Positions 14,201 through 35,093 of a stretch of 64,000 bases of DNA are shown here, in pieces (the first letter of the stretch is position 1; each line of letters begins with the position of its first letter). The position numbers and the translations under genes were made by a program. The notes beneath the pieces were generated by a model. It was not told the DNA's origin, did not search any database, and was given only the letters and a program-made list of their open reading frames with translations. Location of the stretch: assembly GCA_900617105.1 (NCBI GenBank), contig UYFQ01000032.1:310001-374000 (forward strand), read 5' to 3'. Source of the DNA: Hydrurus foetidus (lineage: Eukaryota).

Positions 14201-15763
14201 TCAAGCAGTTTGGAACTGTCTAACGAGAGTGGTCAGCGTTATCGCCTGTTCACTAAGTGATGCAGCAGCAGCAGCCGATTGCTCAACCAATGCAGTGTTC
14301 TGCTGTGTCATATCGTCAATTTCATGCACCGATTGGTTCAGTTGAACGATTCCTTCGGATTGCTGAGCCGAAGCCACACTAATTTCTTCGACAATGTGAT
14401 TAACTTGCTTAGCGTTTGTAACGATGCTCCGCATAGCCGTGCCAGCTTGCTCAACAAGTCGTACACCGCCATCTACGGCATCTACACTGGTCATGATGAG
14501 GACTTTTATTTCATGAGCAGCGTTCGCTGAGCGTTGGGCCAAAGCACGAACTTCGCTGGCAACAACAGCAAAACCCCTTCCTTGCTCACCTGCCCGAGCA
14601 GCTTCAACAGCAGCGTTCAGGGCCAAGATATTGGTTTGAAATGCAATGGAGTCAATCAAACCAATAATGTCATTTATTTTTTTGCTTGACTTTGCAATGT
14701 CTTGCATACTCAGAACCGCTTGCTCAACCACTTGACCACAATTCTGTGCAGAGTTCGACACAGAGGCAGCCAGCCCATTCGCCGTCTGCGCAGAAGCTGC
14801 CGTGCTCTGCACATTCTCTAACAGATGAGAAATTGCAGATGCTGTTATCTGCAAATTCTTGGCAGTTTGTTCAGTGCGCACGGATAAATCTTGGTTACCA
14901 GCAGCTATTTCTTGACTGGCTGATGAAATCAGCTCACTGGAGCCTCTTACTTGGGCCACGATGTAGGCAATACCTCCTTGCATATTTTCCAACGAAGTTT
15001 GCAGATCGGTCATTTCATCTTGGCCAAAAATTTCAATTTTTTGAGTTAAATCTCCTTTTGCAATAGAAACCGTATTAAGACGTACAAGCTTCAATGGATT
15101 ACAAATAGCAACTATATTTATCCAATTGGCTGAAACAACCAAAAGCAGTCCTATTGTTAACAAAATTGCAAAAATCAATTGCATTTGAAATGCAACCTGC
15201 TTTTGTTCATAGGTCGATGCCTGCAGAGTCAAGGTAATTCCTTCACCCAATTGCACGAGTAGCTTGTCCGCCTCCAAAAACTCTGACGCGGCCAATCCTG
15301 ATAATTTATGGGCAGAAGTTGCTGAATCAAAAACGCTTTCCTCCAAACTTTTTATAATAGGTTCCATTCGTGCCTTATATGCAGAAATTCGACCAGAAAG
15401 AGCTTTTACTACTGCTTTCTCCGACTCCGATCGCCCTACTGAGAAATGCTCAGTCAATTTATGTATGGTGTCCACACCGATTTCCCATTTTTGGTGAGAA
15501 TTTTTTATTTTATTAGGAGATTCATATAAAATAATCATTTCCTTCTCCAAAAGTCGTACTTTTGCCATTTCACTGCGCAAAAGATCAAGCCCTTTCAAAC
15601 TATCAACTGACAGCGCCGCAGCAAGCTCACTGGATGTTTGTACTCTGGCCATACCCCAAAGACCTGCACCACCCAAAAGCAATTGGAATATCATAATAAT
15701 AAAAACTACCACAATCATTCTATTTTTAATTCTAAATCCACGCATCATTTCTACAATATTCAT
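14201..15763 (-). CDS. Methyl-accepting chemotaxis protein (AT-rich, likely acquired)
   Basis: Two TM segments flanking a periplasmic sensor, HAMP domain, signalling hairpin [34 protein letters not shown]. Confidence 0.95.
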
Positions 15764-16045
15764 TTAATTTCTCCATGGGAGTTGTCTCAATTTCAAATAC
15801 ATTTAATAAAATTGCAAAATATGCAATCAAAATAAAATATAAGCGATTTATGGAAAATTTTTATTAAATAAATAATTTAATTTAATTTAAAAATTTCTTA
15901 AACCATCTTTTATCAGAAATTGATATACACAAGAGAAAAATGGTCATTTCAGCTGAAGCGCCCCGACCCCAATCACATGACGCACAGACTCGACCAAGTA
16001 GCCAGATCGCGCTAGAAGACCAAGAGCGTCGTCAATGAGGCCTAG

Positions 16046-23573: not shown

Positions 23574-24218
23574 TCAATGCAAATGCCGAGGCCTGCGCCC
23601 ACCACCGCCATGACCCGCACCGCCGGGGCCACCTGAGCCACGCGGTGGACGCCCCAGCTCCAGGGAGTTAGCGAGTGCATCAAAGCGAAGGTTAAAGAGT
23701 TTGTCAATCTCGCCCACCACACCGCCCAGTTCAGCGCCGTCGAAATGGCGCTCCATCATGGCCACCACGTCTTGCACCAGCAAATCACGCTGCACCTGCA
23801 TGATGGCAGCAGGGTCAGGGCCAATGAACAGCATCACGAAATCGTCACGCGATTCGGCTTCTTCGTTGCGCTCGTCGTCCTCATCATCCTCGTCAAATTC
23901 CACGTCGTAGAAAGTGACTTCGATGGCAGCTCCGCGCTCGGAAAGCTCGTTCAGGCTCATGGCAACTTCGTCAAGTACTTGGCGAAAATCATCGTCGCCT
24001 GCGACCGTCCAGCACATTTGCAGCAAATGCGCCGGCGCGTCAAAGCGGATGCCGGGTTCTTCTTCATAGACGCTGGTGGAGCCGTCGGACAAATTGCGTC
24101 CGCCAGCGTATTTCCACAGGGGCTTGAGCGCGTCTTGAAGTTGGTCAAAACTCACGTCAGCACGCAGAGCCACTTCACCGTGGACGTGGATTTCTAGAGG
24201 AGCGTTGTAACGTGTCAT
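23574..24218 (-). CDS. Conserved hypothetical protein (possibly DUF6806)
   Basis: Long ORF with host-like codon usage (EIHVHG); family assignment is from recall and was not verified. Confidence 0.65.
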   Translation of the reverse strand: MTRYNAPLEIHVHGEVALRADVSFDQLQDALKPLWKYAGGRNLSDGSTSVYEEEPGIRFDAPAHLLQMCWTVAGDDDFRQVLDEVAMSLNELSERGAAIEVTFYDVEFDEDDEDDERNEEAESRDDFVMLFIGPDPAAIMQVQRDLLVQDVVAMMERHFDGAELGGVVGEIDKLFNLRFDALANSLELGRPPRGSGGPGGAGHGGGGRRPRHLH

Positions 24219-24247
24219 AGCAGCAATCGTGGAGGGGTCTGATACAA

Positions 24248-24274
24248 CCATTTGGTGCCGGAGCCGGTATCGAA
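24248..24274 (+). repeat. Distal att site (copy of the tRNA-Leu 3' end)
   Basis: CCATTTGGTGCC-GGAGCCGGTATCGAA versus CCATATGGTGCCCGGAGCCGGGGTCGAA at 34995-35022. Confidence 0.85.
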
Positions 24275-24517
24275 AATCAGGCTGTAACCCGCATGAATAC
24301 TAGGTTCCGGTGAATCAACTTTAAAAAGTACCGTAATAAGTACCGTAAAAATGTTTTGTGACCCCCTTGCGAGGGTTCGTATGGTCTGATTCTATGCCCA
24401 CAGGAACCCCATGCTCGCATCAAAACCTGCGGGGACAGCTGGCCGATTTGTTAATGGGGGGAACCACCGGGTTTTCAGGCATCATCGTATACGGGTATCC
24501 CGTACAATCACCACCCC

Positions 24518-24814
24518 ATGTACACCGTCATCGAATCCCCCGTCTTTCAAAAGCAGGCCGTGAAGGTTTGGGATGAAGCCGGGCGTTTTGCCTTCATCGA
24601 CTGGATCGCAAAAAACCCGATGGCGGGTGACGTGATTCCCGGTGCTGAAGGTGCGCGGAAAGTACGCTGGGCGGCTTCCGGGCGTGGCAAGCGCGGCGGC
24701 GCTCGGGTGGTTTACTTCAACTTGTCCGCACAGGGCGTGGTTTATTTGGTGACGGTCTATATCAAAGCCGATCAAGCCAACATCCTGCCCGGCGAAATTA
24801 AGGAGGTGGTTTGA
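24518..24814 (+). CDS. RelE/HigB-like type II toxin
   Basis: NPMAGDVIPGAEGARKVRW-GKRGGARVVYF-YIK pattern; toxin-first gene pair. Confidence 0.88.
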   Translation: MYTVIESPVFQKQAVKVWDEAGRFAFIDWIAKNPMAGDVIPGAEGARKVRWAASGRGKRGGARVVYFNLSAQGVVYLVTVYIKADQANILPGEIKEVV

Positions 24815-24815
24815 T

Positions 24816-25124
24816 ATGGATATTGAAAAAGTAGCCAAGGCCATTGAGGCAGATGCTGGTTTTGTGCTGCCTGACCTTCGCGAGGCTCTGGCACAGGCTC
24901 AAGCGGGCCTTGGGCGAGTCACCACACCAGAGCAAATACTGCTACGACAAGCGCGGACAAAAACAGGGCTATCGCAGCAAGCGTTTGCCCAACGCATCGC
25001 CACCTCGGTAGCCACTTTACGCGACTGGGAACAAGGGCGGTTCGTGCCACCGGGTGGCGTGCTGTGCCTGCTGCGCTTGATCGACAAACATCCTGAATTG
25101 GCCGCTGAACTCGAAACCGCCTGA
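24816..25124 (+). CDS. Xre-HTH antitoxin
   Basis: GLSQQAFA-VATLRDWEQGR HTH; starts 1 bp after the toxin stop. Confidence 0.88.
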   Translation: MDIEKVAKAIEADAGFVLPDLREALAQAQAGLGRVTTPEQILLRQARTKTGLSQQAFAQRIATSVATLRDWEQGRFVPPGGVLCLLRLIDKHPELAAELETA

Positions 25125-25655
25125 TTGCAGGTCTACCGCATCGCCATAAACCCCTTGGTCTATGAGCCGCCCACCTCATAGACCTCATAGGGGCTACGTG
25201 TTTGCCGCCGTGACCGTAAAGCCCTCGCGCCCGCGCGTACATCTCGGTGCGCCGCTCTGACAGCGTGGGATTGAAGGGACTGGGGTGTAACCAGGAGGTG
25301 TAACTACTCTGCTGCACCCTTACGCCATTGAAGGACTTCAGCCCCCACCATGAATGCGTTGGCTTCTATGATTTGCCGCTCAGTTGCCACTCTTGATGCG
25401 GAAACTGCCTTGGAAACCTCGCGTCTGGAAACCGCACGGCAATCCGTCGTTCGGGATGGTGTGCGTCAAACCTGCCTATTGAAACTTACGCAAAACCCTT
25501 TTGCGAAGATGTGCAAGTCTGTCGCAAATTGCAGCAAAAGTAAGCATTTTCCATTTCCTCAAAATGAAAGCACATGAGGAAACTTCAGCATTTTTTAGCA
25601 TTTCCCACGCGGAACACTCAGGTTTTTGCAGGTTTTCTCAGGTGAGCAAATATGC

Positions 25656-26114
25656 TCAGCCCCTGAAGTAGTCACACCGGTGCAGCACGGCCAGCACCGC
25701 CATACCTCGGGTGCAACGCCCATAGCTCAGCCCCCGGCATTCTTGGCAGTGGCGGCGATCATCTTGCTCACGGTCACGCCGGTTCAGCGTATCGGCCAGC
25801 CGGTGCGCAGCGTCCAGCCCCATTCCTTTGTCAGTGAAGCGGGCCGTTCGCACTGTGAAGGTGTCCAGCTCCACCGCGTTCATGGCGGTGCTGTGTGGCC
25901 AGCACCAGCGGTCAGGGTCTGGTTTGATGGCTGGGTCAGCGTCTTTGGGCGATGCTGTGGGGTCGTTTGCAGCCCCCTCCCTTTTTTGAATATGCTCAGG
26001 GTACGACCCTACAAAACCTACGAAACCCCCATTTTGAGGTTTTGTAGGTTTCGTAGGGTCGGTTTCAGGGGCATCCTGACTTTTCAGACTTTGAAGGCGT
26101 GCCAGCCAATTCAT
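25656..26114 (-). CDS. Satellite hypothetical protein overlapping iterons; C-terminal CxxC
   Basis: ATGA-coupled to the primase; PTKPTKP/GFVGFVG is encoded by inverted DNA repeats; CQEC-C-C. Confidence 0.6.
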   Translation of the reverse strand: MNWLARLQSLKSQDAPETDPTKPTKPQNGGFVGFVGSYPEHIQKREGAANDPTASPKDADPAIKPDPDRWCWPHSTAMNAVELDTFTVRTARFTDKGMGLDAAHRLADTLNRRDREQDDRRHCQECRGLSYGRCTRGMAVLAVLHRCDYFRG

Positions 26115-28573
26115 GGCGAAACTTTCACCGATGCCGTCATTGCAGCCGGGTTGATGGCGTAGCGTTCGCTGGGTCTGCCACCTGTTGGGCCGGAATGCAC
26201 GACCTCACGGCGCAACCAATCGTAGTCGGCCAGCACCTCAGCCGCTTTGCGCACCGCCTCGGGGGTGGTCAGCTCAGCCCAGCCTTTGACAGCGATCATG
26301 CGCGGGGTGAAGCCGTCCAGCACCACACCATCCCGGTCTGTCAGCTTGCCCGCTCTGATTTTGGTCAGCAACGCCCTTGCCCCCGATGTTTCAGGCGTGA
26401 CCGCTGCCGCGTAGAGCCTGTCTGCATGGGTACGCAGGTACTCACTCCACGCCAGCGCACGCATCAACTCACGGGCATGAACCACTTGGCCGTTGTCTGG
26501 GGTGTCAATGTTGGCGAACACTAACGCCAGGGCGGGGATTAGCTTGCGGTACTTGGCGAGGTGGCTTTCCATTGCGGGGTGGAGTTCACCGCCTTGGAGT
26601 TCTTGCTCGAAAGCGGTACGCCACTCCACAAACAAGGCTTGAGCCTCGGGGCTGAATCGCCATACATTGGCCTCGGTGTCGCTCGCTGGGGCAAGGTTGG
26701 CCAGCCGCTCGAATACCGCCCATGCTGTGGTCTTGGCGGGTGTGTCGGGCCATTGGTCAACGTGGACAAATCCACCCCCCGTGTCGGGCCACACGGTCAG
26801 GCTGAAGCGCTGCAACAAGCCATCATCGGCGCTGCCACCGGCCACAGCATCCCGCACATAGGATTGAATGCGCCCCGGTTGAATGCCGCCGATCATCGCC
26901 AGACACACGCGCGGAATGTGCAGGGTGCCACGTGCGATGCGGTCAAAAGTGTAGCCCTGATTCCCGTCATAGCCTTGCAGGTAGAAAGACCGCGCCCCTT
27001 CCTGCCCTTGCTTGTCCATGCCGGTCAGCAGGCCGTAGAGTTCATCGCGGTAGCTCAGGGTGCCCCACGGGTTCGCGGTCAGTATTTCACCCAGCTTTTC
27101 CACGGTGGCATCGTTGACGATGTAGCGCCGGGCCAGGGGTTCCTCGGTGGTGGCTGCGGGTTCCAACAGGGCACGCGCTGCAAGGGGGTCTTTGACGGCG
27201 AGCGCTTTGGCCTTGCCTGCCCGCTCTGCGTTTTGCAGCTCGGTGACTTTGCAGTCCAGTACCCACGCCTCATGGGATTCTTTGTGGCGCTCGAACTCTG
27301 CGCTTTGCAAGCGGTGCAAGGGTTTGAGGGCTTCACTCAGCGCCGGGGATTTCATCGCGCCGGGTCTGCCCACAATCAGCCCCCAGAGGTTGGGGGTGAC
27401 TTGCCAGTCGTCGCGCTCTTTGGGGTGAACCACGGCTTTGGCACCGATCAGGCTGGACAAGGCCACCACCGCGCCCACGGCGGCAAAGTCTGGGGGGCAC
27501 TGCATACGGTGTGCAATGTCCAGCACCCAGCCCCGCAATGCCTCGGGCAGCAAATCGGCATGGAAGGCCATCACCGGGAGTAGCGCCGTGGGTAGCGGGG
27601 TGGGTTCTGGCCATGCTTGCAATGGGTTTGCAACAGGCTCCGCACTGAGTGCAGAATTACCAGCCCCCCATGCTGGCCGTGCAGCCCCCATGCACTGCAC
27701 GACAGCCCCAGCCCCGGCGAGCTGGTGCAGGTCGTTGAAGTCGGTGGCCTTGTCGGGGCGGTCTTCTCCAAACAGGGGGGTGGCGATCAAGCCATTCACG
27801 GCGTGGGCTGCTGCGCTTGCTTTGGTCATGCCTGGGTTGCCCTCGGTCAGGTGGTCGTCGTCTGCGGCTATGCACAGAGTCAGGGTGGGGTACTTGGCTT
27901 TCAAGGCGATGGCGACGGCTTCCAAGTTGCCCGCGTTGAAGGTCACGGCCACGGCGTGCTGTGTGGCTTCAAAGATGCTGGCACCGGTGGCGAAGCCTTC
28001 GCACACGACCAACATCCCGCCAGTGGGTTTGCCTATGGCGTGGTAGCAGCCTTTGACCCGTCCACCAGGGTGAAAGCGCTTGCTGCCATCGGGTGCGATG
28101 GTTTGCAGGCTGTGCAGCTTGCCCGCTGTGTCGCGCATGGGAATCAGCAGCGTGTCACCGAATACCCGCACACCGTGGGGCTGGATACCTTTGGTAGTCA
28201 GGTAGGGATGCGCCGTGACCAGCTCAGCGTTTGCCCACAGCCGCGCCACGGCTTCGCGGGCCTGCTGGTGCTGGGTGGCTTTGTCGGTTTCGCGCTGAGC
28301 CTTCATGGCCTGGGTGCGCACGCGGTGGGCTTCGCGCTCGGCCTCGGTCATGTCGTTGTCGGCCTTGCTGCACCAGGGCACCGTGAGGGCAGAACGCCAG
28401 TCCCCAAAGGCACCGGCGGCGATGCCATCAGTGTGCAGGATGTACCAGCCGGTTTTATCCGGGCGTGTGTCGGTGCTGAAGCGGTGCAACTTGCCATCAT
28501 CAATGAGGGCATCGGGCGGGGTCAGTCCAGCGGCTGCTATGGCGATTTGGAAGTGTTCGGCGGGGTTACTCAT
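26111..28573 (-). CDS. TOPRIM primase fused to DUF3987/YfjI-type helicase
   Basis: VCEGFATG and AADDD TOPRIM motifs; GRPGAMKS Walker A; DELYG; DGLLQRF. Confidence 0.9.
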   Translation of the reverse strand: MSNPAEHFQIAIAAAGLTPPDALIDDGKLHRFSTDTRPDKTGWYILHTDGIAAGAFGDWRSALTVPWCSKADNDMTEAEREAHRVRTQAMKAQRETDKATQHQQAREAVARLWANAELVTAHPYLTTKGIQPHGVRVFGDTLLIPMRDTAGKLHSLQTIAPDGSKRFHPGGRVKGCYHAIGKPTGGMLVVCEGFATGASIFEATQHAVAVTFNAGNLEAVAIALKAKYPTLTLCIAADDDHLTEGNPGMTKASAAAHAVNGLIATPLFGEDRPDKATDFNDLHQLAGAGAVVQCMGAARPAWGAGNSALSAEPVANPLQAWPEPTPLPTALLPVMAFHADLLPEALRGWVLDIAHRMQCPPDFAAVGAVVALSSLIGAKAVVHPKERDDWQVTPNLWGLIVGRPGAMKSPALSEALKPLHRLQSAEFERHKESHEAWVLDCKVTELQNAERAGKAKALAVKDPLAARALLEPAATTEEPLARRYIVNDATVEKLGEILTANPWGTLSYRDELYGLLTGMDKQGQEGARSFYLQGYDGNQGYTFDRIARGTLHIPRVCLAMIGGIQPGRIQSYVRDAVAGGSADDGLLQRFSLTVWPDTGGGFVHVDQWPDTPAKTTAWAVFERLANLAPASDTEANVWRFSPEAQALFVEWRTAFEQELQGGELHPAMESHLAKYRKLIPALALVFANIDTPDNGQVVHARELMRALAWSEYLRTHADRLYAAAVTPETSGARALLTKIRAGKLTDRDGVVLDGFTPRMIAVKGWAELTTPEAVRKAAEVLADYDWLRREVVHSGPTGGRPSERYAINPAAMTASVKVSP

Positions 28574-28824
28574 GCGCGTTCTCCTGGGGGACTGGTGGTG
28601 GTGGCGTGGCTGTTTGCGGGGCGGGTGGCGGCTCTTTCGGCACTGGCTGCGAGGATGCGTAAAAGCCCGACAGCGCCCTCTGCCCGGTCTGCGAAGTCGT
28701 AGGCGTAATCCCAGTCGGGTACTGATTTACGAATCTCGGACAAGGCCACCAGGAGGGCGGATTCAGCCCGTATCAAGGCCAGGGCGAACTCGGTGGCGGC
28801 GGCGGGTGTGGCGGTGGTGTTCAT
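28570..28824 (-). CDS. Small satellite hypothetical protein
   Basis: ATGA-coupled on both sides within the replication operon. Confidence 0.65.
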   Translation of the reverse strand: MNTTATPAAATEFALALIRAESALLVALSEIRKSVPDWDYAYDFADRAEGAVGLLRILAASAERAATRPANSHATTTSPPGERA

Positions 28825-29198
28825 GCTGCACCGCCTTTCAGAACTGCCTGTGCGCAGTCCCCCAGCTCTTCAATGCTGGCCTGTGTTTGGCTGCAAGCGT
28901 GGGCTGCGTCCAGCAGCATCACTTGCATGGCCGTGGCGTGTTCGATGCTGAACCGGTCGTTGTTGATGGATATGCCTTGGTCGTTCAAATCCTTCGCCAG
29001 TGGGGCACACCATTCAGCTTTGGAACGAATCGCGTCCAGTGTGGCAATGGCCCCAAACATCCAGCTTGCAAGGCGTAGCGCCCCCTCAGCTTTGCCTATG
29101 TGCTCGTAGTCTGACAGCTCAAAAATGCCTGCCGTCAAGGTCTCCAATGTGGGCGTGGCTGTGGCGTTGGTGCCCGTGGGCGTGTTGGTCGTGCTCAT
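28821..29198 (-). CDS. Small satellite hypothetical protein
   Basis: In the operon; ends with KGGAA that supplies the RBS for the next gene. Confidence 0.65.
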   Translation of the reverse strand: MSTTNTPTGTNATATPTLETLTAGIFELSDYEHIGKAEGALRLASWMFGAIATLDAIRSKAEWCAPLAKDLNDQGISINNDRFSIEHATAMQVMLLDAAHACSQTQASIEELGDCAQAVLKGGAA

Positions 29199-29201
29199 GA
29201 T

Positions 29202-29432
29202 TTAAGCCCCCACCGTTGCTGCGTTTTGCTGCGTTCTGCTGCAAGCGTGCTTCAGCAGGGTCAGTGCCCGGTTCGCTTTGGCCGTGGCGGCGTGCAGATT
29301 GATGGCTGCACTGCCGGGGTGACGAAGGTGGTACAGCGCCATGCTCAGGGCGTTCTCGGCCAAGGCGTGGAGTTGGATGCTGTCGATGGCGTGGCCCGCT
29401 GTGGGCGTGATGGTGGTGTTGACCTGGGTCAT
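29202..29432 (-). CDS. Small protein downstream of the C4-like RNA (Icd/kil-like position)
   Basis: GGAG RBS before ATG 29432 (MTQVNTT...); the RBS overlaps the antisense target. Confidence 0.6.
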   Translation of the reverse strand: MTQVNTTITPTAGHAIDSIQLHALAENALSMALYHLRHPGSAAINLHAATAKANRALTLLKHACSRTQQNAATVGA

Positions 29433-29486
29433 GGTTTCTTCTCCGGAATGAGACTGAAAACCACCGTTTGCGTTTCTACGCGCATT

Positions 29487-29555
29487 GGGTGGGTGGGGTG
29501 TTAGAAACATGGATTCCGCCATGCGGCCAGCCTTGCGGACAAGCCCATCCCACCC
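29487..29555 (-). ncRNA. C4/P4-CI-like antisense immunity RNA
   Basis: 11-bp outer stem and two inner hairpins. Loop CGGAAU and bulge UUUCUA are complementary to paired sites both upstream and downstream. Confidence 0.75.
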
Positions 29556-29613
29556 GTAACCAGCGGCGTGCGCGTGACCAAAGGCCACACGTTCACCAAA
29601 ATTGGGGCGTGAT

Positions 29614-29635
29614 AAAACCCCACTTAAGGCGGGGG
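29614..29635 (-). terminator. Terminator-like hairpin after the upstream antisense target
   Basis: Minus strand reads CCCCGC-CTTAA-GTGGGG-TTTT. Confidence 0.5.
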
Positions 29636-29732
29636 CTGAGACCTCGGAATCAACGGTGTTTCTACGCACCATCCCTCTCGGGACGTGGGCAGTATAGCGG
29701 GAATGATGCCGCGTGAGGCTTGCTGAAACCAA

Positions 29733-29761
29733 TTGACGTTTAACGCCATGCGTTATACACT
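29733..29761 (+). promoter_or_regulatory. higBA sigma70 promoter with palindromic operator
   Basis: TTGACG-N17-TACACT; TAACGC-CAT-GCGTTA palindrome in the spacer; ATG 7 nt after the -10 box. Confidence 0.75.
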
Positions 29762-29768
29762 TTGCGTC

Positions 29769-30047
29769 ATGATTCAAAGCTTTAAATGTGCGGACACAAA
29801 AGCGCTGTTTGAGGGGCAAGTGGTGGCGCGGTTTGCCAATCTGAGCACGGTGGCGACACGCAAGCTCCAAGTACTGCACAGCGCCTTGTTGCTTATGGAC
29901 TTGCGCGTTCCGCTGGGAAACCACCTTGAGGCGCTCATGGGCAACCGTGCAGGGCAGCACAGTATTCGCGTGAATGACCAATGGCGCTTGTGTTTTGTGT
30001 GGACACCCACCGGCCCCGCAGCCGTTGAAATTATTGATTACCACTGA
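29769..30047 (+). CDS. higB: HigB toxin
   Basis: MIQSFKC-T-LF, DLRVPLGNHLEAL-GQHSIRVNDQWRLCF, EIIDYH. Confidence 0.93.
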   Translation: MIQSFKCADTKALFEGQVVARFANLSTVATRKLQVLHSALLLMDLRVPLGNHLEALMGNRAGQHSIRVNDQWRLCFVWTPTGPAAVEIIDYH

Positions 30048-30059
30048 AGGAGCTATTCC

Positions 30060-30389
30060 ATGACTACCACCACTGAAATCCCTGTCAACGGTATGCGCCC
30101 CATCCACCCCGGCGAGGTGCTGCGTGAGGAATTCATTACCCCGTTGGGACTGACCGCGCACGCCCTGTCGATGGCGCTGCAAGTCCCCGCACCTCGTATC
30201 AGTGAAATCGTGCGCGAGCGCCGGGCGATCACTGCTGATACCGCCTTGCGGCTGGCTAAGTACTTCGACACCAGTGTTCAGTTTTGGCTGAACCTGCAAA
30301 CTGACTACGACGTTGCTGTCGCACGCACCACCATGACCGCCGTCCTTGACCGAATCAGCCGCTGCGAAGGACTGGCAGCCCATGCGTGA
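30060..30389 (+). CDS. higA: HigA antitoxin
   Basis: HPGEVLREEF, RAITADTALRL and FWLNLQ motifs. Confidence 0.95.
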   Translation: MTTTTEIPVNGMRPIHPGEVLREEFITPLGLTAHALSMALQVPAPRISEIVRERRAITADTALRLAKYFDTSVQFWLNLQTDYDVAVARTTMTAVLDRISRCEGLAAHA

Positions 30390-30613
30390 CTTGCTGCGCA
30401 CGAATGTCCCAGCGGCATAGCCCCTGCAAATAACCCGGCTGGGGCTGCGCACCAGTTCTGCGTACCGGCTTTGCGTACCGTCGTTGTGCAGCGCATCCAC
30501 CAGCCCCCAAGCGTTCACCGTGGTGTTCAACACCGTGGCAGAATCAGGGCTGTAGTTGGTTTGCTTTGGGCCTCGGATGTTTGCAGCGTCCGGGGCTTTC
30601 GTCTTTGTGGGGT

Positions 30614-30904
30614 TCATGCTTTTGTTCCTGTGGTGTGGTGCAAAACGTAAGCGCCAACGCGGTGAACGACACCGGCCTCGGTCACGACCTCCATCCAATG
30701 CCGCTGAATGTCTTCACCCCGCTGGCGTAAGTCCTTGATGCGGGCGCGTGGGTCGTAAATGTCCAGGTGGCGCGATGCCTCCAAGCTGTTGACGAAGGGG
30801 AGTTCGCTCAGAGCTGCCTTCAAACGAATGCATTGGGTCGCGCCGGTCACGCCTTTGAAGCGATCGCGGATGGCGTGCAGGGTGTTGATTTTTTCGGAGT
30901 TCAT
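30614..30904 (-). CDS. Winged helix-turn-helix protein
   Basis: EASRHLDIYDPRARIKDLRQRG pattern, typical of satellite HTH genes. Confidence 0.75.
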   Translation of the reverse strand: MNSEKINTLHAIRDRFKGVTGATQCIRLKAALSELPFVNSLEASRHLDIYDPRARIKDLRQRGEDIQRHWMEVVTEAGVVHRVGAYVLHHTTGTKA

Positions 30905-30917
30905 GGTTTTTTCTCTT

Positions 30918-31280
30918 TCATGGCCAGCAGGCCAGTTTTTCCCGGATGTGGGCGATGGCCTGGGAGAACGTGCCCTCCCGGTAGCCGCCGTGGATGGTGT
31001 GAATCAGCGCCTGCCAGGGTTCGCGGCTACGGCGGTAGAACAGCAGCGGCTCAGCCCCGGCCTTTTGGCCTTGCTTGCAGGCTTGTTGCCACCAAGACGG
31101 GCGGGATAGCTTTTCGTGGCGTTTGCACTCGATAGCGAAGCCTTGCACCATCAGGCAGTCAGCCCCACCGGCGCGGGCTTGATCGACGTTGCGCCGTACT
31201 TCAATACCGAGTTCGTCTTGCAGCAGGCGGCACAGCTCACGCTCAGCAGCCGCGCCTTTGTTGCGTTGGGATGCGCCCAT
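30918..31280 (-). CDS. PD-(D/E)XK nuclease, Holliday-junction-resolvase-like
   Basis: KGAAAERE-GAD-IECK motif order; start at MGASQ (31313 is an alternative). Confidence 0.7.
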   Translation of the reverse strand: MGASQRNKGAAAERELCRLLQDELGIEVRRNVDQARAGGADCLMVQGFAIECKRHEKLSRPSWWQQACKQGQKAGAEPLLFYRRSREPWQALIHTIHGGYREGTFSQAIAHIREKLACWP

Positions 31281-31284
31281 AGCG

Positions 31285-31605
31285 TCAGGTGGTGACGGAT
31301 TTGAGGTGGGCATTGCGCAGCTTGGTAGCCGCTGGTTTGGGGTAGTCCGGTGGGGCTGGTGGTGCGTCCCCGGTCATTTTGCGCAGCCATTCCCGCACGT
31401 CACCAACTTTCCAGGCGCTCACACGATCAGAGAGTTTTACGGGCGCTGGGAAGGTCTTGGTTTTGACCTTGCGCCACAGTGTCGGGCCGCTGAATGGCAG
31501 TACCGGCGTGGCGTTGGGCCGCTTGGGGCTTTGAACGAGTTGGGACTCGCGGATGTAGGCACTGTCTGCCAGTGCGTCGAAAGGGGATATGAGTTGGGGT
31601 GACAC
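31285..31605 (-). CDS. alpA: AlpA-family regulator/excisionase
   Basis: LPFSGPTLWRKVK-FPAPVKLS-SAWKVGDVREW. Confidence 0.88.
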   Translation of the reverse strand: MSPQLISPFDALADSAYIRESQLVQSPKRPNATPVLPFSGPTLWRKVKTKTFPAPVKLSDRVSAWKVGDVREWLRKMTGDAPPAPPDYPKPAATKLRNAHLKSVTT

Positions 31606-31701
31606 GTTGCGCCTTGCTGTTTGAACAGGGGCGAGTGTTCGATTTTCGTGCTGTTAGTTGGTGCAATTGCCAAGCTGAATTGGCAATTGCCAGTGAACCC
31701 G

Positions 31702-32541
31702 TTATTTCATGCGGACTTCCAGCGCATCAGGAATTTTTTTCAAATGCTCTTCGATAGCACGCTTGGATACATGCGCTCCCAATTCTTCAGTTATCCCCTC
31801 AATGTAGAGTGCCACTTTACCCAGGCGGCTAGAGTCATCTAGCGACACATTTGCAGCTTTGGCCAGGGCCGCAATGATGGTCAGGAGTGTGTCCCGCTCT
31901 CGCTTGAGTAGGGGTTTTTCAGGTCTATCCCGCTTAGCTGAACGTCTATACGCCGCAAGCTCTTCATAAAGAGCCAATTCAGCTTCAGGAGTTCGATGGT
32001 TAGGCGAATTCACTCCGCCATACTGAGTAAAAACATTGTTCAATTCCTCCTGAAAATTCGGGGTTTCGGCTTTTCTTCTTTGATTTTCTGACTCCTCTAC
32101 GCCAGCATTCAGGATTTCATGCTCTTGGTTTCGATACTCAGTCCATAACTCACCCAGTTCAATTCGTCTAGCGGTACACCAAGCAGCAAACGCGGAATCT
32201 ACAACCCACGTATCGTCAAGATTCACACAATCATCTAAGGACGTTCTCAGCACAACAGGCTTTAGTTCGCCTTTTCCAAGGCTAAGACGTACCGCATCTG
32301 AGACTACTTTTATCGCTCGGCTCATTCCTCCTGTCGCCTCAATTCGGAAATAGCAGTGAACATTGCTGGTCTCGTGGAATGGATTAAGTTCACTATCCAC
32401 GTATTCGATGCCACACGCATTGCCACCGTCATCAATGCAGGCAATTCGAATGGCGGTGCTCAAACGTATGCAAATATCATCAAAATTATCAACTTGGAGG
32501 TAAAGCACCTCAATCGGATAGTTCAGGTTTACATCACCCAT
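31702..32541 (-). CDS. AT-rich hypothetical protein with HTH-like C-terminus
   Basis: 279-aa ORF; C-terminal ERDTLLTIIAAL-VSKRAIEEHLK; lies upstream of alpA. Confidence 0.7.
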   Translation of the reverse strand: MGDVNLNYPIEVLYLQVDNFDDICIRLSTAIRIACIDDGGNACGIEYVDSELNPFHETSNVHCYFRIEATGGMSRAIKVVSDAVRLSLGKGELKPVVLRTSLDDCVNLDDTWVVDSAFAAWCTARRIELGELWTEYRNQEHEILNAGVEESENQRRKAETPNFQEELNNVFTQYGGVNSPNHRTPEAELALYEELAAYRRSAKRDRPEKPLLKRERDTLLTIIAALAKAANVSLDDSSRLGKVALYIEGITEELGAHVSKRAIEEHLKKIPDALEVRMK

Positions 32542-32682
32542 TGCGTCCCCTGTCTCGCACCTGAAAAGAAAACCAGCGCCGCCGGGTCAGGGAGTCCCGG
32601 TGTTCACCTCGGGTAATTAGTCCGGGGCTAGGCGTGGCCTAAAACTGTTGCCAGCCGCGTTTCAAACGCGAGTGGTCTTCAC

Positions 32683-32874
32683 TCAATCCGGTAGCACTTC
32701 CCGCCCCACAGAAGGCATAGCGTCCCACGCTTGATCTATCGTCAAAGGGGCATCCCGCTGCATGGTCAGCAAATCGGCCAAACGGATAACTTTCCCCGCC
32801 TTGTGCTGCGCTATCGACTTGGCAAGATGCGCAGCGTTCGCAGGCGTGGACAGCAGGTACTCGGTTTCCGTCAT
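32683..32874 (-). CDS. Orphan YefM/Phd-like antitoxin fragment
   Basis: ETEYLLSTPANAAHLAKSIAQ resembles the YefM toxin-binding C-terminal helix; no partner toxin alongside. Confidence 0.5.
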   Translation of the reverse strand: MTETEYLLSTPANAAHLAKSIAQHKAGKVIRLADLLTMQRDAPLTIDQAWDAMPSVGREVLPD

Positions 32875-32978
32875 GGCGTGGCCTTTCGTGTGTTTCCAAC
32901 TTTCCGTATTCTGCATTTTTTGAGTGGGTGGCTACTGAGTGTCCACCCCTTCCCCCTGCACCGTGGTGAACCCATTCA

Positions 32979-33143
32979 GGGGGGGGTTTGTAGGTTTCGT
33001 AGGGTCGCAGTAGGCCCATATTCAAAAACACGGGGGGAGGTTTCGTAGCGTTCGTAGCGTCCCTCCAGCCCCATATTCAAAAGTACAGGGGGGTTTCGTA
33101 GGTTTTGTAGGGTCGTACCCTGGGCATATTCAAAAAAGGGAGG
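32979..33143 (+). repeat. Three ~55-bp imperfect direct repeats carrying GGTTTYGTAG iterons
   Basis: Each unit is a G-run, two iterons, then CATATTCAAAA. Unit 33089-33143 matches 25976-26030 inverted at 54/55 nt. Confidence 0.85.
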
Positions 33144-33593
33144 TACGCCATGAAGTTCATCAAATCAATGGTTACTCCATATTGGTAGTTAATAGTTTGC
33201 TATCAATATAGTAGTAAGTGAAAAAATGAGTCCTACGCGAGAGGAAACCCCCCGTGAGAAAACGACCCCGTGAGGGTCAATCTGGGGATAGGGGTCTGGG
33301 AAATTTCCTGATATGCGGAAGTGAAAATTGAGCTAAACCTACGGTCTTTAGCCCCTGACCCTCCAAGGAATGAAAGGGCATACCCCCATTTTGATTATTT
33401 CTACAGGGGGATTTAACCTGCGAATGGGAAAACATGCGGTCTAGGCAGGGTCGATTCGTTCAGGGATTTACACCCCCCTACACACCACGCGGTGGGCGAT
33501 GGCTGGCCTGTAGCTGTGGGGCTTGGTCATGCTGCCCGGTGTAGCGCAGGCTGTTAGCAAATGTTAATGTTCGCGCCAAAGTAGCGGTCACGG

Positions 33594-34823
33594 TCACGCT
33601 GCCTGGTGTAGCGGTATCACTTCAACCCCGGTGCGCAGCTTGTCCAGGTAGTCCGCCCACCGTTGCATCATCTCCCGGCGGGCTGGGAGGTGGGCGGTTC
33701 TGTTGTAGGCGCGTCCGTTGGCATCTTTGACTTGGTGGGCGAGCTGGTGCTCGATCAAGTCCACACGTTCCCCCTGCACTTCGTCCATGATGGTTCTGGC
33801 CATCGCTCGAAAGCCGTGGGCGCTGTGAACTTCCTTGCTGTAGCCCATGCCGCGCAATGCTGCGTTCACGGTGTTCTCACTCATGGGGCGTTCACCCGTG
33901 CGCAGGCTGGGGAAGATGTAGCGGCCATGCCCGGTCATGCGGTGGATGCTGCGCAGTATCTCCACGGCTTGGGCGGCCAGGGGCACCAGGTGGTCAACCT
34001 TCATCTTCATCTTGGTGCCAGGGATACGCCATTCCGCCGTATCGAGGTCAACCTCTGCCCACTCAGCAGCCCGCAGTTCACCAGGACGCACGAACAGCAG
34101 GGCGGACAACTTCAGCGCGGCCACGGTGTAGGGGTGGCCGGTGTAGTCGAAGATGGAACGCATGAGTTCACCGGCTTGCTTTGGCTCAGTGATGGCGGGG
34201 AAGTGCTTTTCAGGGACAACCGACAACGCGCCACGCAAATCGGCGGTTACATCGCGCTCTGCCAGCCCCACAGCGACAGCGAAGCGGAACACCTGCCCAC
34301 AGGCTTGTTTGATGCGGTGGGCGCTGTCGATGGCTCCACGGGCTTCAACCTTGCGCAGTACGTTGTCCAGAACATCACGCGGGCCTATGGTGGCGATGGG
34401 CATGTGACCCATGAAGGGGAACACGTCTTTGACAAACCACGTCTCGATCTTGTCTTGCGTGGTGCTTTCGCGGTTTGCCGCTGTCTTGGCTAACCAGTCA
34501 CGGGCGACGGCCTCGAAGGTGTTGACCGCTGCGTCAGCGATGGCCTGTCTGTCTTGCTTCTTGGCGGTGCTGGGGTCTGTGCCATTTGCCAGCAGCTCGC
34601 GGGCTTTGTCGCGCAACTTACGGGCCATCTTTAGCGTTACCGCCGTGTCCGAGTAAACCCCAAGGGCCAGCGTTTTGCGCTTATCGGCGTGGGTGTAGTC
34701 CATGCGCCAGTATTTGCCCGCAGCCTTCACCAGCAAATACATCCCCCCGCCATCGCTGTGTTTGTCCCCTGCGGGCTTGCCGCTGTGCTTGAGCGTCTTG
34801 ATCGCGGTATCTGTCAGTGCCAT
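33594..34823 (-). CDS. P4-type tyrosine integrase
   Basis: Arm-binding N-terminus (DGGGMYL-KYWR), VRPGEL, HGFR, QLAH and AYNR motifs. Confidence 0.96.
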   Translation of the reverse strand: MALTDTAIKTLKHSGKPAGDKHSDGGGMYLLVKAAGKYWRMDYTHADKRKTLALGVYSDTAVTLKMARKLRDKARELLANGTDPSTAKKQDRQAIADAAVNTFEAVARDWLAKTAANRESTTQDKIETWFVKDVFPFMGHMPIATIGPRDVLDNVLRKVEARGAIDSAHRIKQACGQVFRFAVAVGLAERDVTADLRGALSVVPEKHFPAITEPKQAGELMRSIFDYTGHPYTVAALKLSALLFVRPGELRAAEWAEVDLDTAEWRIPGTKMKMKVDHLVPLAAQAVEILRSIHRMTGHGRYIFPSLRTGERPMSENTVNAALRGMGYSKEVHSAHGFRAMARTIMDEVQGERVDLIEHQLAHQVKDANGRAYNRTAHLPARREMMQRWADYLDKLRTGVEVIPLHQAA

Positions 34824-34999
34824 CGCTGCCCCTGTTGCGGTATCTGCTTTTACGGTATCGGGCTGATACCGTCAGAAATACCGTTAAAACTTTGAGCTTT
34901 GATGATACCGAGTGAGATGGTGTGAGGCAAAGAAAAACCCGCTACGCTGGGGAACGTGCGGGTTATTGATACTGTGTGAGGTGGTCTGATATGACCATA

Positions 35000-35093
35000 T
35001 GGTGCCCGGAGCCGGGGTCGAACCGGCACGCCCCTTATGCAGGAAAGCGGCGGATTTTAAGTCCGCAGTGTCTACCAATTTCACCATCCGGGC
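35000..35093 (-). tRNA. tRNA-Leu(TAA)
   Basis: GCCCGGATGG...anticodon TAA...GGTTCGA...GGGCACCA; long variable arm. Confidence 0.95.

What the first reader, a model, noticed from the sequence alone, without database searches (positions are those of the whole stretch)
24248..35022. Minimal phage-satellite-like element with no capsid, terminase or conjugation genes
Seen: att repeats, integrase, alpA, a resolvase-like nuclease, wHTH, small coupled ORFs and a primase-helicase, all on the minus strand; TA pairs on the plus strand. Known: int-alpA-primase is the core shared by P4, PICIs and Vibrio PICMIs. P4 adds sid/psu/delta and many PICIs add terS or capsid-size genes. None was recognised here. 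Inference: a helper-dependent minimalist satellite that combines P4-like RNA immunity with a PD-(D/E)XK nuclease and may not fit existing families.
Basis: partly seen in the sequence, partly recalled or inferred. Interest (0 to 1): 0.7.

Follow-up and report, generated by a model that had tools for sequence, protein, structure and literature searches.

The report
Minimal satellite island with RNA lock
A 10.8-kb mobile island sits in a tRNA gene and carries its own integrase, replication enzyme and a small folded RNA whose two loops match sites in front of the replication genes, but no recognisable coat, packaging or mating genes, so it likely keeps itself silent with that RNA and probably travels inside an unknown helper phage, a variant of known phage satellites.

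Summary
The element is real. A 16-nt tRNA-Leu(TAA) 3' end is repeated 10.76 kb away with one base missing, and a close relative has the empty site. It encodes a P4-type integrase, AlpA, a PD-(D/E)XK nuclease, a wHTH protein, a Toprim-DUF3987 primase-helicase, a conserved 152-aa gene holding an origin-like palindrome, and two toxin-antitoxin pairs. No capsid, terminase, Sid/Psu or conjugation gene was recognised. The RNA-immunity guess holds up. Rfam misses it, but a C4/CI-type RNA lies at 29491-29555. In 12 held-out relatives its two loops pair with their own upstream and downstream targets far better than with each other's (permutation p about 1e-4). The island belongs to a widespread Burkholderiales family whose right arm is swappable: terS, capsid plus protease, an unknown gene pair, or cargo only. 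No relaxase or Trb gene turned up there. It meets three of the four PICMI model genes but not fis. The nuclease is accessory, found in 0 of 102 family loci. Helper, excision and packaging are unshown. Verdict: new variant of a known kind, moderately interesting.

The parts
35000..35093 (-). tRNA-Leu(TAA), the integration target; its 3' end (35015-35000) is the attL core
   Evidence: ARAGORN; core position; empty site in L171
24229..24274 (-). attR: displaced tRNA 3' fragment with a 1-nt deletion (core 24267-24253), running into the start of the host DUF6806 gene
   Evidence: same 1-2 nt deletion in attR of L003, L061, L071, L137; such damaged fragments are described in PMC4383910
33594..34823 (-). 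P4-type tyrosine integrase, 409 aa, catalytic R/HxxR/H/Y motifs present
   Evidence: Pfam; motifs
32979..33143 (-). three tandem 53-55-nt copies of the origin-like half-site; one copy is 98% complementary to 25976-26030. Possible second replication-protein binding array (inferred)
   Evidence: D2, I1-I3; rare in relatives
32683..32874 (-). short ORF with a YefM/Phd C-terminal fragment (below cut-off), probably a toxin-antitoxin remnant
32559..32638 (-). int-alpA RNA motif (RF02996, 36.5 bits vs 35.8)
   Evidence: also in L139, L142, L143, L145, L154
31702..32541 (-). 279-aa orphan in a variable cargo slot; replaced by 555 other bases in a 95-98% identical element from another study
   Evidence: no family hit; joint 31606-32629 in run X3
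31285..31605 (-). AlpA regulator / likely recombination directionality factor
   Evidence: PF05930
30918..31280 (-). PD-(D/E)XK Holliday-junction-resolvase-like nuclease, accessory
   Evidence: PF24608, PHROG 244; 0 of 102 family loci; 57% relative in a lambdoid nin region
30614..30904 (-). winged helix-turn-helix protein (HTH_39)
   Evidence: in 8 of 102 family loci
29769..30389 (+). HigB-HigA toxin-antitoxin pair inserted on the opposite strand
29618..29696 (-). leader: -10-like TATACT (29696), upstream targets b1 (29664-29658, in a small hairpin) and a1 (29651-29645), terminator-like hairpin 29634-29618
29491..29555 (-). C4/CI-type antisense RNA: three-helix junction with loop a' (29519-29512) and bulge b' (29508-29500)
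   Evidence: covariation; target pairing; weak similarity of relatives to Rfam sRNA-Xcc1
29441..29478 (-). downstream targets b2 (29478-29472) and a2 (29449-29444); a2 overlaps the GGAG ribosome-binding site of the 76-aa ORF
29202..29432 (-). 76-aa first ORF under RNA control (position of P1 icd / P4 kil; no sequence match to them)
   Evidence: homologs behind the RNA in L090, L142-L145, L168, L170
28570..29198 (-). two small coupled ORFs (125 aa, 84 aa) of unknown function
   Evidence: no family hits; four 63-67% homologs of the 125-aa ORF; atlas uninformative
26111..28573 (-). Toprim primase fused to DUF3987 (YfjI-like) helicase, 820 aa; Toprim E and DxD, Walker A and B motifs present
   Evidence: DUF3987 shown to be a 5'-3' helicase in another element, PMC11724360
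25656..26114 (-). conserved core gene of unknown function (152 aa, C-terminal four-cysteine motif) whose 5' part holds the inverted doublet repeat 26061-26038 / 26027-26004, the likely origin
   Evidence: 711 homologs; 68 of 102 family loci by tblastn; alignment; palindrome in 73 of 80 loci; no fold match
24518..25124 (+). RelE-like toxin and HTH antitoxin pair, occupying the right-arm slot where relatives carry terS, capsid or an unknown pair

Best explanation
This is an integrated, PICMI-like island at tRNA-Leu with its own integrase, AlpA and primase-helicase, a C4/CI-type RNA whose loops match its own leader, and no recognisable packaging gene, and it likely moves as a satellite inside particles of an unknown helper phage. 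Shown: site-specific insertion, intact core motifs, the RNA fold and its cognate targets. Inferred working: in the integrated state a constitutive promoter at about 29696 makes a leader that mostly stops at the hairpin at 29634-29618; the processed RNA pairs with a1/b1 and with a2/b2, blocks the ribosome site of the 76-aa ORF and so would shut the coupled operon down to the primase-helicase. An incoming island with the same loop letters would be silenced too (type-specific immunity). On helper infection the alpA operon would switch on, AlpA and integrase would excise the circle, the Toprim-DUF3987 protein would replicate it from the palindrome inside the 152-aa gene, and the helper's own terminase would package concatemers into full-size heads, as shown for Vibrio PICMIs. 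The two toxin-antitoxin pairs probably stabilise the island or abort rival phages.
For: Empty site in a close relative and in 24 of 30 loci. int + AlpA + DUF3987 are three of the four PICMI model genes, and PICMI115 is packaged as concatemers without packaging genes (PMC10803314); marine virion-borne elements also lack capsid genes (PMC9618062). The family is mobile and common: 2866 primase homologs at E<=1e-50, 18 of 401 sampled genomes, eight kinds of tRNA/tmRNA target in 31 loci. Right-arm genes of relatives point to phages, not conjugation: of 150 ORFs from 47 loci, Terminase_4 in 2, capsid E plus S49 protease in 1, relaxase/Trb/coupling protein in 0; another carrier of the same RNA has DUF3987 plus capsid E (L169). 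Two of 75 whole contigs tested that belong to the close family end in 99-123-nt terminal repeats, as circles do; one (L054) has no recognised packaging gene. RNA: 96% of cells paired, 13 of 21 pairs with double changes in 12 held-out sequences; cognate pairing 6.3-7.7 nt vs 4.0-5.0 nt non-cognate, permutation p<=1e-4 for all four targets, 18 different a' loops in 18 copies. A 95-98% identical element with a swapped cargo slot occurs in another study.
Against: No helper, circle, amplification or virion of this element was seen: depth is even across element and flanks in the two runs that hold it and no att-att joint was listed (contigs only). No full-length primase-helicase relative in 50,697 cultured phage records; close relatives in IMG/VR are 2 of 25 loci and both sit on longer phage-like contigs. 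23 of 55 family loci carry a conserved right-arm gene pair that this copy lacks, so it may have lost a needed function. No packaging site (cos/pac) was identified. The RNA module is present in only 5 other of 90 related loci searched, plus 2 with a classic C4, so it is optional. Six of the 12 held-out RNAs come from one genome, and related copies inflate covariation counts. The promoter has CG instead of the TG seen in most relatives.
Confidence: 0.6

Rival explanations
1. A stranded derivative: the island once carried a right-arm packaging module (terS, capsid, or the unknown 225-aa + 75-aa pair), lost it to a toxin-antitoxin cassette, and now can excise and replicate but not be packaged; toxin-antitoxin pairs keep it in place.
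For: 23 of 55 loci carry the pair, 3 carry terS, 1 capsid, 4 DUF5681; the two nearest tree neighbours with labels include pair-bearing L002 and L003, also at tRNA-Leu; a YefM fragment suggests decay of cargo.
Against: All core motifs are intact; 25 of 54 rows lack all these modules and are scattered over the tree (at least 7 changes forced); a near-identical element with the same right arm and a different left cargo exists in another study; the attR deletion is a family trait, not damage.
Confidence: 0.22
2. A relaxase-free hitcher of conjugative elements (oriT-only island) that replicates after excision and is moved by a helper plasmid or ICE.
For: Over 1,500 islands with only an oriT are reported (10.64898/2026.01.13.699239); int-alpA-rep islands with trb genes are IncP-mobilised (PIMEs); non-coding stretches 33143-33594 and 25124-25656 could hold an oriT; I could not screen oriT libraries.
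Against: 0 conjugation genes in 150 right-arm ORFs against terS and capsid hits; C4/CI-type immunity is a phage and satellite trait; no full-length primase relative on 72,556 plasmids.
Confidence: 0.12
3. A mosaic of decayed prophage pieces with no coherent life cycle.
For: The nuclease resembles a lambdoid nin-region resolvase; several ORFs are orphans.
Against: Precise att ends, conserved gene order int-alpA-primase-152aa in dozens of unrelated loci, intact motifs and a perfectly self-matched RNA switch.
Confidence: 0.06

Closest known systems
PICMI (phage-inducible chromosomal minimalist islands of Vibrionaceae; PMC10803314)
   Same: int, alpA and a DUF3987 primase in one small island with direct repeats; no capsid, terS or capsid-size genes; variable cargo.
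   Different: Integrates in tRNA-Leu, not beside fis; betaproteobacterial host; 10.8 kb against a 6.7-kb mean; has a C4-type RNA, a conserved 152-aa gene with an origin-like palindrome, a nuclease and two TA pairs; packaging not shown.
P4-like satellites
   Same: P4-type integrase at a tRNA-Leu 3' end, AlpA, an antisense RNA flanked by upstream and downstream targets in front of small ORFs and the primase gene (CI RNA with seqA/seqC, as summarised in PMC4825925).
   Different: No Psu, Sid, Delta or Ash match; helicase is DUF3987, not the P4 alpha type; the RNA has two recognition boxes like P1 c4 and does not match the Rfam C4 or IsrK models.
PICI (SatelliteFinder model, PMC10085698)
   Same: Integrase, AlpA regulator, primase-replicase; same gene order; relatives in the family add terS or a capsid gene in the PICI position.
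   Different: This copy has neither capsid nor terS, so it would be only a Type C element, a class those authors left unanalysed.
c4 antisense RNA of phages P1/P7 (RF01695) and sRNA-Xcc1 (RF02221)
   Same: Three-helix RNA with a' and b' boxes matching a1/b1 upstream and a2/b2 at the next ribosome site; classic C4 fills the same slot in relatives L144 and L145; 8 of 12 held-out copies score 30-39 bits on sRNA-Xcc1.
   Different: The window copy matches no Rfam model even at E<=10; sRNA-Xcc1 is described as a trans-acting, virulence-linked sRNA in the papers I could read, whereas these copies covary with cis targets.
VEIMEs (virion-encapsidated integrative mobile elements; PMC9618062)
   Same: Integrase, AlpA, primase/helicase, no capsid genes, accessory nucleases.
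   Different: Defined by concatemers in marine virions, which could not be tested here; other hosts.

Membership tests
PICMI | tyrosine integrase PF00589 | tested here: met
   50.5 bits vs cut-off 27.1
PICMI | AlpA PF05930 | tested here: met
   24.8 bits vs 21
PICMI | primase with DUF3987 (PF13148) or DUF5906 | tested here: met
   302 bits; model genes
PICMI | integration next to fis (called a hallmark) | tested here: not met
   target is tRNA-Leu(TAA), other flank DUF6806
PICMI | induced by a virulent phage and packaged as concatemers in full-size heads | not testable with these tools
   only contigs of DNA runs could be laid; no joint or amplification seen
P4-like satellite | integrase and AlpA | tested here: met
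P4-like satellite | Psu, Sid, Delta | tested here: not met
   no match among the element's ORFs in Pfam (E<=0.1), PHROGs or NCBIfam
P4-like satellite | Ash/epsilon and alpha-type primase-helicase | tested here: not met
   no Ash hit; Toprim_3 + DUF3987 instead
P4-like satellite | antisense immunity RNA between an upstream and a downstream target | tested here: met
   architecture and covariation; activity itself not tested
PICI (SatelliteFinder types A/B) | integrase, regulator, primase-replicase | tested here: met
   model
PICI (SatelliteFinder types A/B) | capsid-morphogenesis gene and/or small terminase | tested here: not met
   no profile match in this element; present in some relatives. 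Remote homology of the 125-aa and 84-aa ORFs was not tested by folding
PICI (SatelliteFinder types A/B) | 152-aa core gene as a hidden TerS or capsid factor, by fold | tested here: inconclusive
   model pLDDT 68.5; no Foldseek hit at E<=0.001, best VIA Z 5.0
PIME / GIsul2-type mobilisable elements | trbJ and trbL beside int, alpA and rep | tested here: not met
   none in the element or in 150 right-arm ORFs of relatives; definition
oriT-only islands | an oriT shared with a conjugative helper | not tested
C4 antisense RNA (RF01695) | match to the Rfam model at gathering score | tested here: not met
   no hit at E<=10
C4 antisense RNA (RF01695) | a' and b' boxes complementary to paired targets up- and downstream, the second at a ribosome site | tested here: met
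   7/7/6/7-nt matches in the window; holds in 12 held-out copies

The most novel reading that the evidence does not exclude
A large, undescribed betaproteobacterial satellite family in which a fixed core (integrase, AlpA, Toprim-DUF3987, an origin-bearing zinc protein) swaps its hijack module freely, from none to terS to a capsid to an unknown 225-aa + 75-aa pair that is a new packaging-hijack system, while a fast-diversifying C4-type RNA (the real role of the sRNA-Xcc1 class) sets immunity types; this copy is the fully mobile zero-packaging-gene form.
Probability: 0.25. Interest if true: 0.72.

Novelty: new variant of a known kind. Interest (0 to 1): 0.45.

Why it matters
If mobile, it extends packaging-gene-free satellites from Vibrio to freshwater-type Burkholderiales and offers a natural series (no module, terS, capsid, unknown pair) on one backbone for asking what a satellite minimally needs. 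The RNA gives a ready reporter test: 18 copies, 18 different a' loops, each matched to its own targets. It also suggests that RNAs annotated as sRNA-Xcc1, now discussed as virulence sRNAs, may be cis-acting mobile-element switches. The parts themselves are each of a known kind, which caps the surprise.

Tried and rejected
Rfam on the element and on 29400-29760 alone found no C4/IsrK match; the RNA was found only by comparison with relatives. A long 471-aa frame (30617-29202) that reads through higBA antisense and the RNA into the 76-aa ORF recalls P4 eta (recalled), but it is inconclusive: chance of the antisense part being open is 0.215, and the in-frame read-through holds in 8 of 13 island copies against 2 and 5 of 13 for the other frames. 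The sigma-70 scan gave 3 promoters vs 3.9 expected and 17 terminators vs 13.2, so it carries no weight alone; single-sequence folding of the RNA was unremarkable (z -0.21). Folds of the 152-aa core protein and of the relatives' 225-aa protein gave no specific match; the 225-aa family does not align with the terS of L061; the 75-aa family has 3565 relatives but no NCBIfam, Pfam or PHROG name. Atlas: nothing useful for the 125-aa ORF; only hypothetical clusters for the 225-aa protein. PADLOC: only weak HTH hits. No solved structure matched the nuclease. The half-site pattern had no exact match in viral contigs. No RNA holder was listed, so expression was not examined; runs X4-X7 cover only scraps. 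No whole genome is held, so a resident helper prophage could not be sought. The tree is the quick version. Papers PMC176756 and PMC3256417 were not held, and the supplement of PMC5737381 (which describes c4-2 and int-alpA) could not be read; it and the PICMI list of 135 elements, which my supplement search did not surface, may already cover this family or this RNA.


Full report
1. Observation. The element lies between the 3' end of tRNA-Leu(TAA) (35000-35093, minus strand) and a host DUF6806 gene (23574-24251). The 16-nt core at 35015-35000 recurs at 24267-24253 with one base missing; no other place in the window holds the core or a one-deletion variant. I searched 201 genomes of the family around handle G001 with the DUF6806 protein; 113 matched, and of the best 30 loci 24 have tRNA-Leu(TAA) within 300 nt upstream. 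L171, with a 96% identical DUF6806 protein, reads straight from the tRNA into the gene. So about 10.76 kb were inserted at this site. The one-base gap recurs in attR of L003, L061, L137 (two bases in L071) among 12 elements with clear ends and is a described feature of tRNA islands (PMC4383910, passages).

2. Genes. Pfam, PHROGs and NCBIfam confirm integrase, AlpA, a PD-(D/E)XK nuclease, an HTH_39 protein and an 820-aa Toprim-DUF3987 protein on the minus strand, and HigBA and a RelE-like/HTH pair on the plus strand. Catalytic motifs of integrase, Toprim and the ATPase are present. DUF3987 was shown to be a 5'-3' helicase in another mobile element (PMC11724360, passages). Nothing matched capsid, terminase, Sid, Psu, Delta, Ash, relaxase or Trb families. 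An int-alpA RNA motif lies at 32559-32638.

3. The family. The primase-helicase has 2866 homologs at E<=1e-50 among 7994 candidates scored; named ones are Polaromonas, Rhodoferax and Variovorax. It was found in 18 of 401 sampled genomes. I gathered 125 loci and kept the 102 with at least 50% identity over the best segment. Their shared order is int, alpA, often an 83-aa ORF, primase-helicase, then the 152-aa gene. Thirty-one have a tRNA or tmRNA directly before int, of eight kinds. The 152-aa gene is real: 711 homologs, invariant cysteines. Its 5' part carries an inverted doublet repeat, seen in 73 of 80 loci with enough sequence (alignment-score threshold, no shuffled control for this count). 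I read it as the origin by position; this is inference. The window also has three half-site copies behind int, one 98% complementary to the origin half; an upstream copy above the shuffled score appears in only 8 of 80 loci including the window, some doubtful. It recalls the P4 crr site (recalled, not tested).

4. Right arm. Of 55 loci with at least 2.2 kb after the helicase (window and near-duplicates included), 23 carry an unnamed 225-aa + 75-aa gene pair. I scanned 150 of 169 other right-arm ORFs from 47 loci, after leaving out 8 near-duplicate loci; some ORFs lie beyond the element where no att was found. Terminase_4 appeared in 2 loci, capsid E with an S49 protease in 1 (inside an att-bounded 10.5-kb element that has the same RNA), and no conjugation gene at all. 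On a quick tree of 54 rows the right-arm types are scattered; 25 rows have none of the pair, terS or DUF5681. The window fills this slot with a toxin-antitoxin pair. The nuclease is absent from all 102 loci; its best viral match (57%) lies among O-like rep, DnaB, NinB and HNH genes.

5. The RNA. Rfam finds nothing at 29400-29760. Five relatives share the region, and two others have a classic C4 RNA in the same slot. The six align to a three-helix fold with 11 of 21 pairs doubly changed. A model built from them found 13 matches in 7 of 150 genomes, one being a training sequence. In the 12 new copies 96% of cells pair and 13 of 21 pairs change on both sides (alignment fitted to the model). The loop a' and the bulge b' were compared with 260 nt upstream and about 100 nt downstream of each copy. 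Cognate runs average 6.9, 6.3, 7.7 and 7.3 nt against 4.6, 4.0, 5.0 and 4.7 nt for non-cognate pairs; permutation p is at most 1e-4 for each. All 18 a' loops differ. In the window the matches are 7, 6, 7 and 7 nt, and a2 overlaps the GGAG before the 76-aa ORF. A terminator-like hairpin sits between the upstream targets and the RNA. This is the layout of P4 CI with seqA/seqC (PMC4825925, passages) and of P1 c4 with a'/b' (10.1101/2020.03.17.996009, passages). Caveats: six held-out copies are from one genome, five of them orphan cassettes without int or primase nearby; the others lie in islands with PriCT2-Toprim-DUF927 primases or with DUF3987 plus capsid. Eight of 12 score 30-39 bits on sRNA-Xcc1, below its cut-off of 53. 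The module is optional in the family: besides the window, 5 of 90 loci searched.

6. Mobility. Two runs of one study hold the element at even depth with its flanks and list no att joint; they may be its source. A run of another study holds a 95-98% identical element, attached to the same flank, with the 279-aa gene replaced by 555 other bases and an extra half-site inside the 152-aa gene. Two close-family contigs of 75 whole contigs tested have terminal repeats, which suggests circles but can arise in assembly. No cultured phage or plasmid holds a full-length relative. Helper and packaging site are unknown.

7. Mechanism. Most likely (0.6) a helper-phage satellite held silent by the RNA and packaged without its own packaging proteins, as PICMIs are (PMC10803314, passages and section 10). 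Rivals: stranded derivative (0.22), oriT-only conjugative hitcher (0.12; 10.64898/2026.01.13.699239, passages), prophage debris (0.06).

8. Known kinds and novelty. It meets int, AlpA and DUF3987 of the PICMI model and fails fis; that study found 135 such trios, 67 in Vibrionaceae. It fails P4 and PICI A/B and would be a Type C PICI (PMC10085698, passages). It lacks the trb genes of PIMEs (10.64898/2026.01.12.698999, first sixth of the text). Nine literature searches showed no paper on this betaproteobacterial family or on cis targets for sRNA-Xcc1-like RNAs; subscription papers and two supplements were out of reach. Other papers seen as passages: PMC12595487, PMC12189769, PMC11701678, PMC5737381, PMC2864571 (91, supplement hits 97), PMC9618062, PMC8628076. 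Earlier notes of this scan report several other uncatalogued C4-like switches in islands, which I did not check and which lower the surprise. Verdict: real, new variant of a known kind, interest 0.45.

Noticed in passing
G033 (L149, L153, L155-L158; L161-L166): One genome holds six copies of the C4/Xcc1-like RNA module with six different a' loops; five are orphan cassettes (RNA plus two short ORFs) with no integrase or primase match in the flanks fetched.
   Followed up: partly
L147, L148, L149, L151, L152, L153, L155, L156 at about 1505-1576: These RNAs score weakly on Rfam sRNA-Xcc1, a family treated as a trans-acting virulence sRNA, yet covary with cis targets; the tandem sRNA-Xcc1 copies reported in a Xylella island may be such switches.
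   Followed up: partly
L037:6511-7312 and 22 other loci: Conserved right-arm pair (225-aa helical protein plus 75-aa protein with an STG motif, 3565 relatives) with no family name or fold match, in the slot where other members carry terS or capsid.
   Followed up: partly
L143:2429-4587 and L169:319-2450: DUF3987 islands with the same RNA switch that also encode capsid E and an S49 protease.
   Followed up: partly
window 25160-25640: Non-coding stretch with several short doublet repeats unlike the origin doublet; function unknown, possible packaging or transfer site.
   Followed up: no
window 24229-24251 and 34974-34999: The island's DNA just after the tRNA resembles the first 20 bases of the host DUF6806 gene, extending the att repeat beyond the tRNA.
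   Followed up: partly
window 29202-30617: A 471-codon frame runs antisense through higBA and through the RNA into the 76-aa ORF; not distinguishable from chance here.
   Followed up: yes
L137:14979-17597: A 15.4-kb att-bounded family member carries an 872-aa protein with an N-terminal lysozyme domain.
   Followed up: no
window 15001-16000: A low-GC kilobase (0.355) outside the finding.
   Followed up: no
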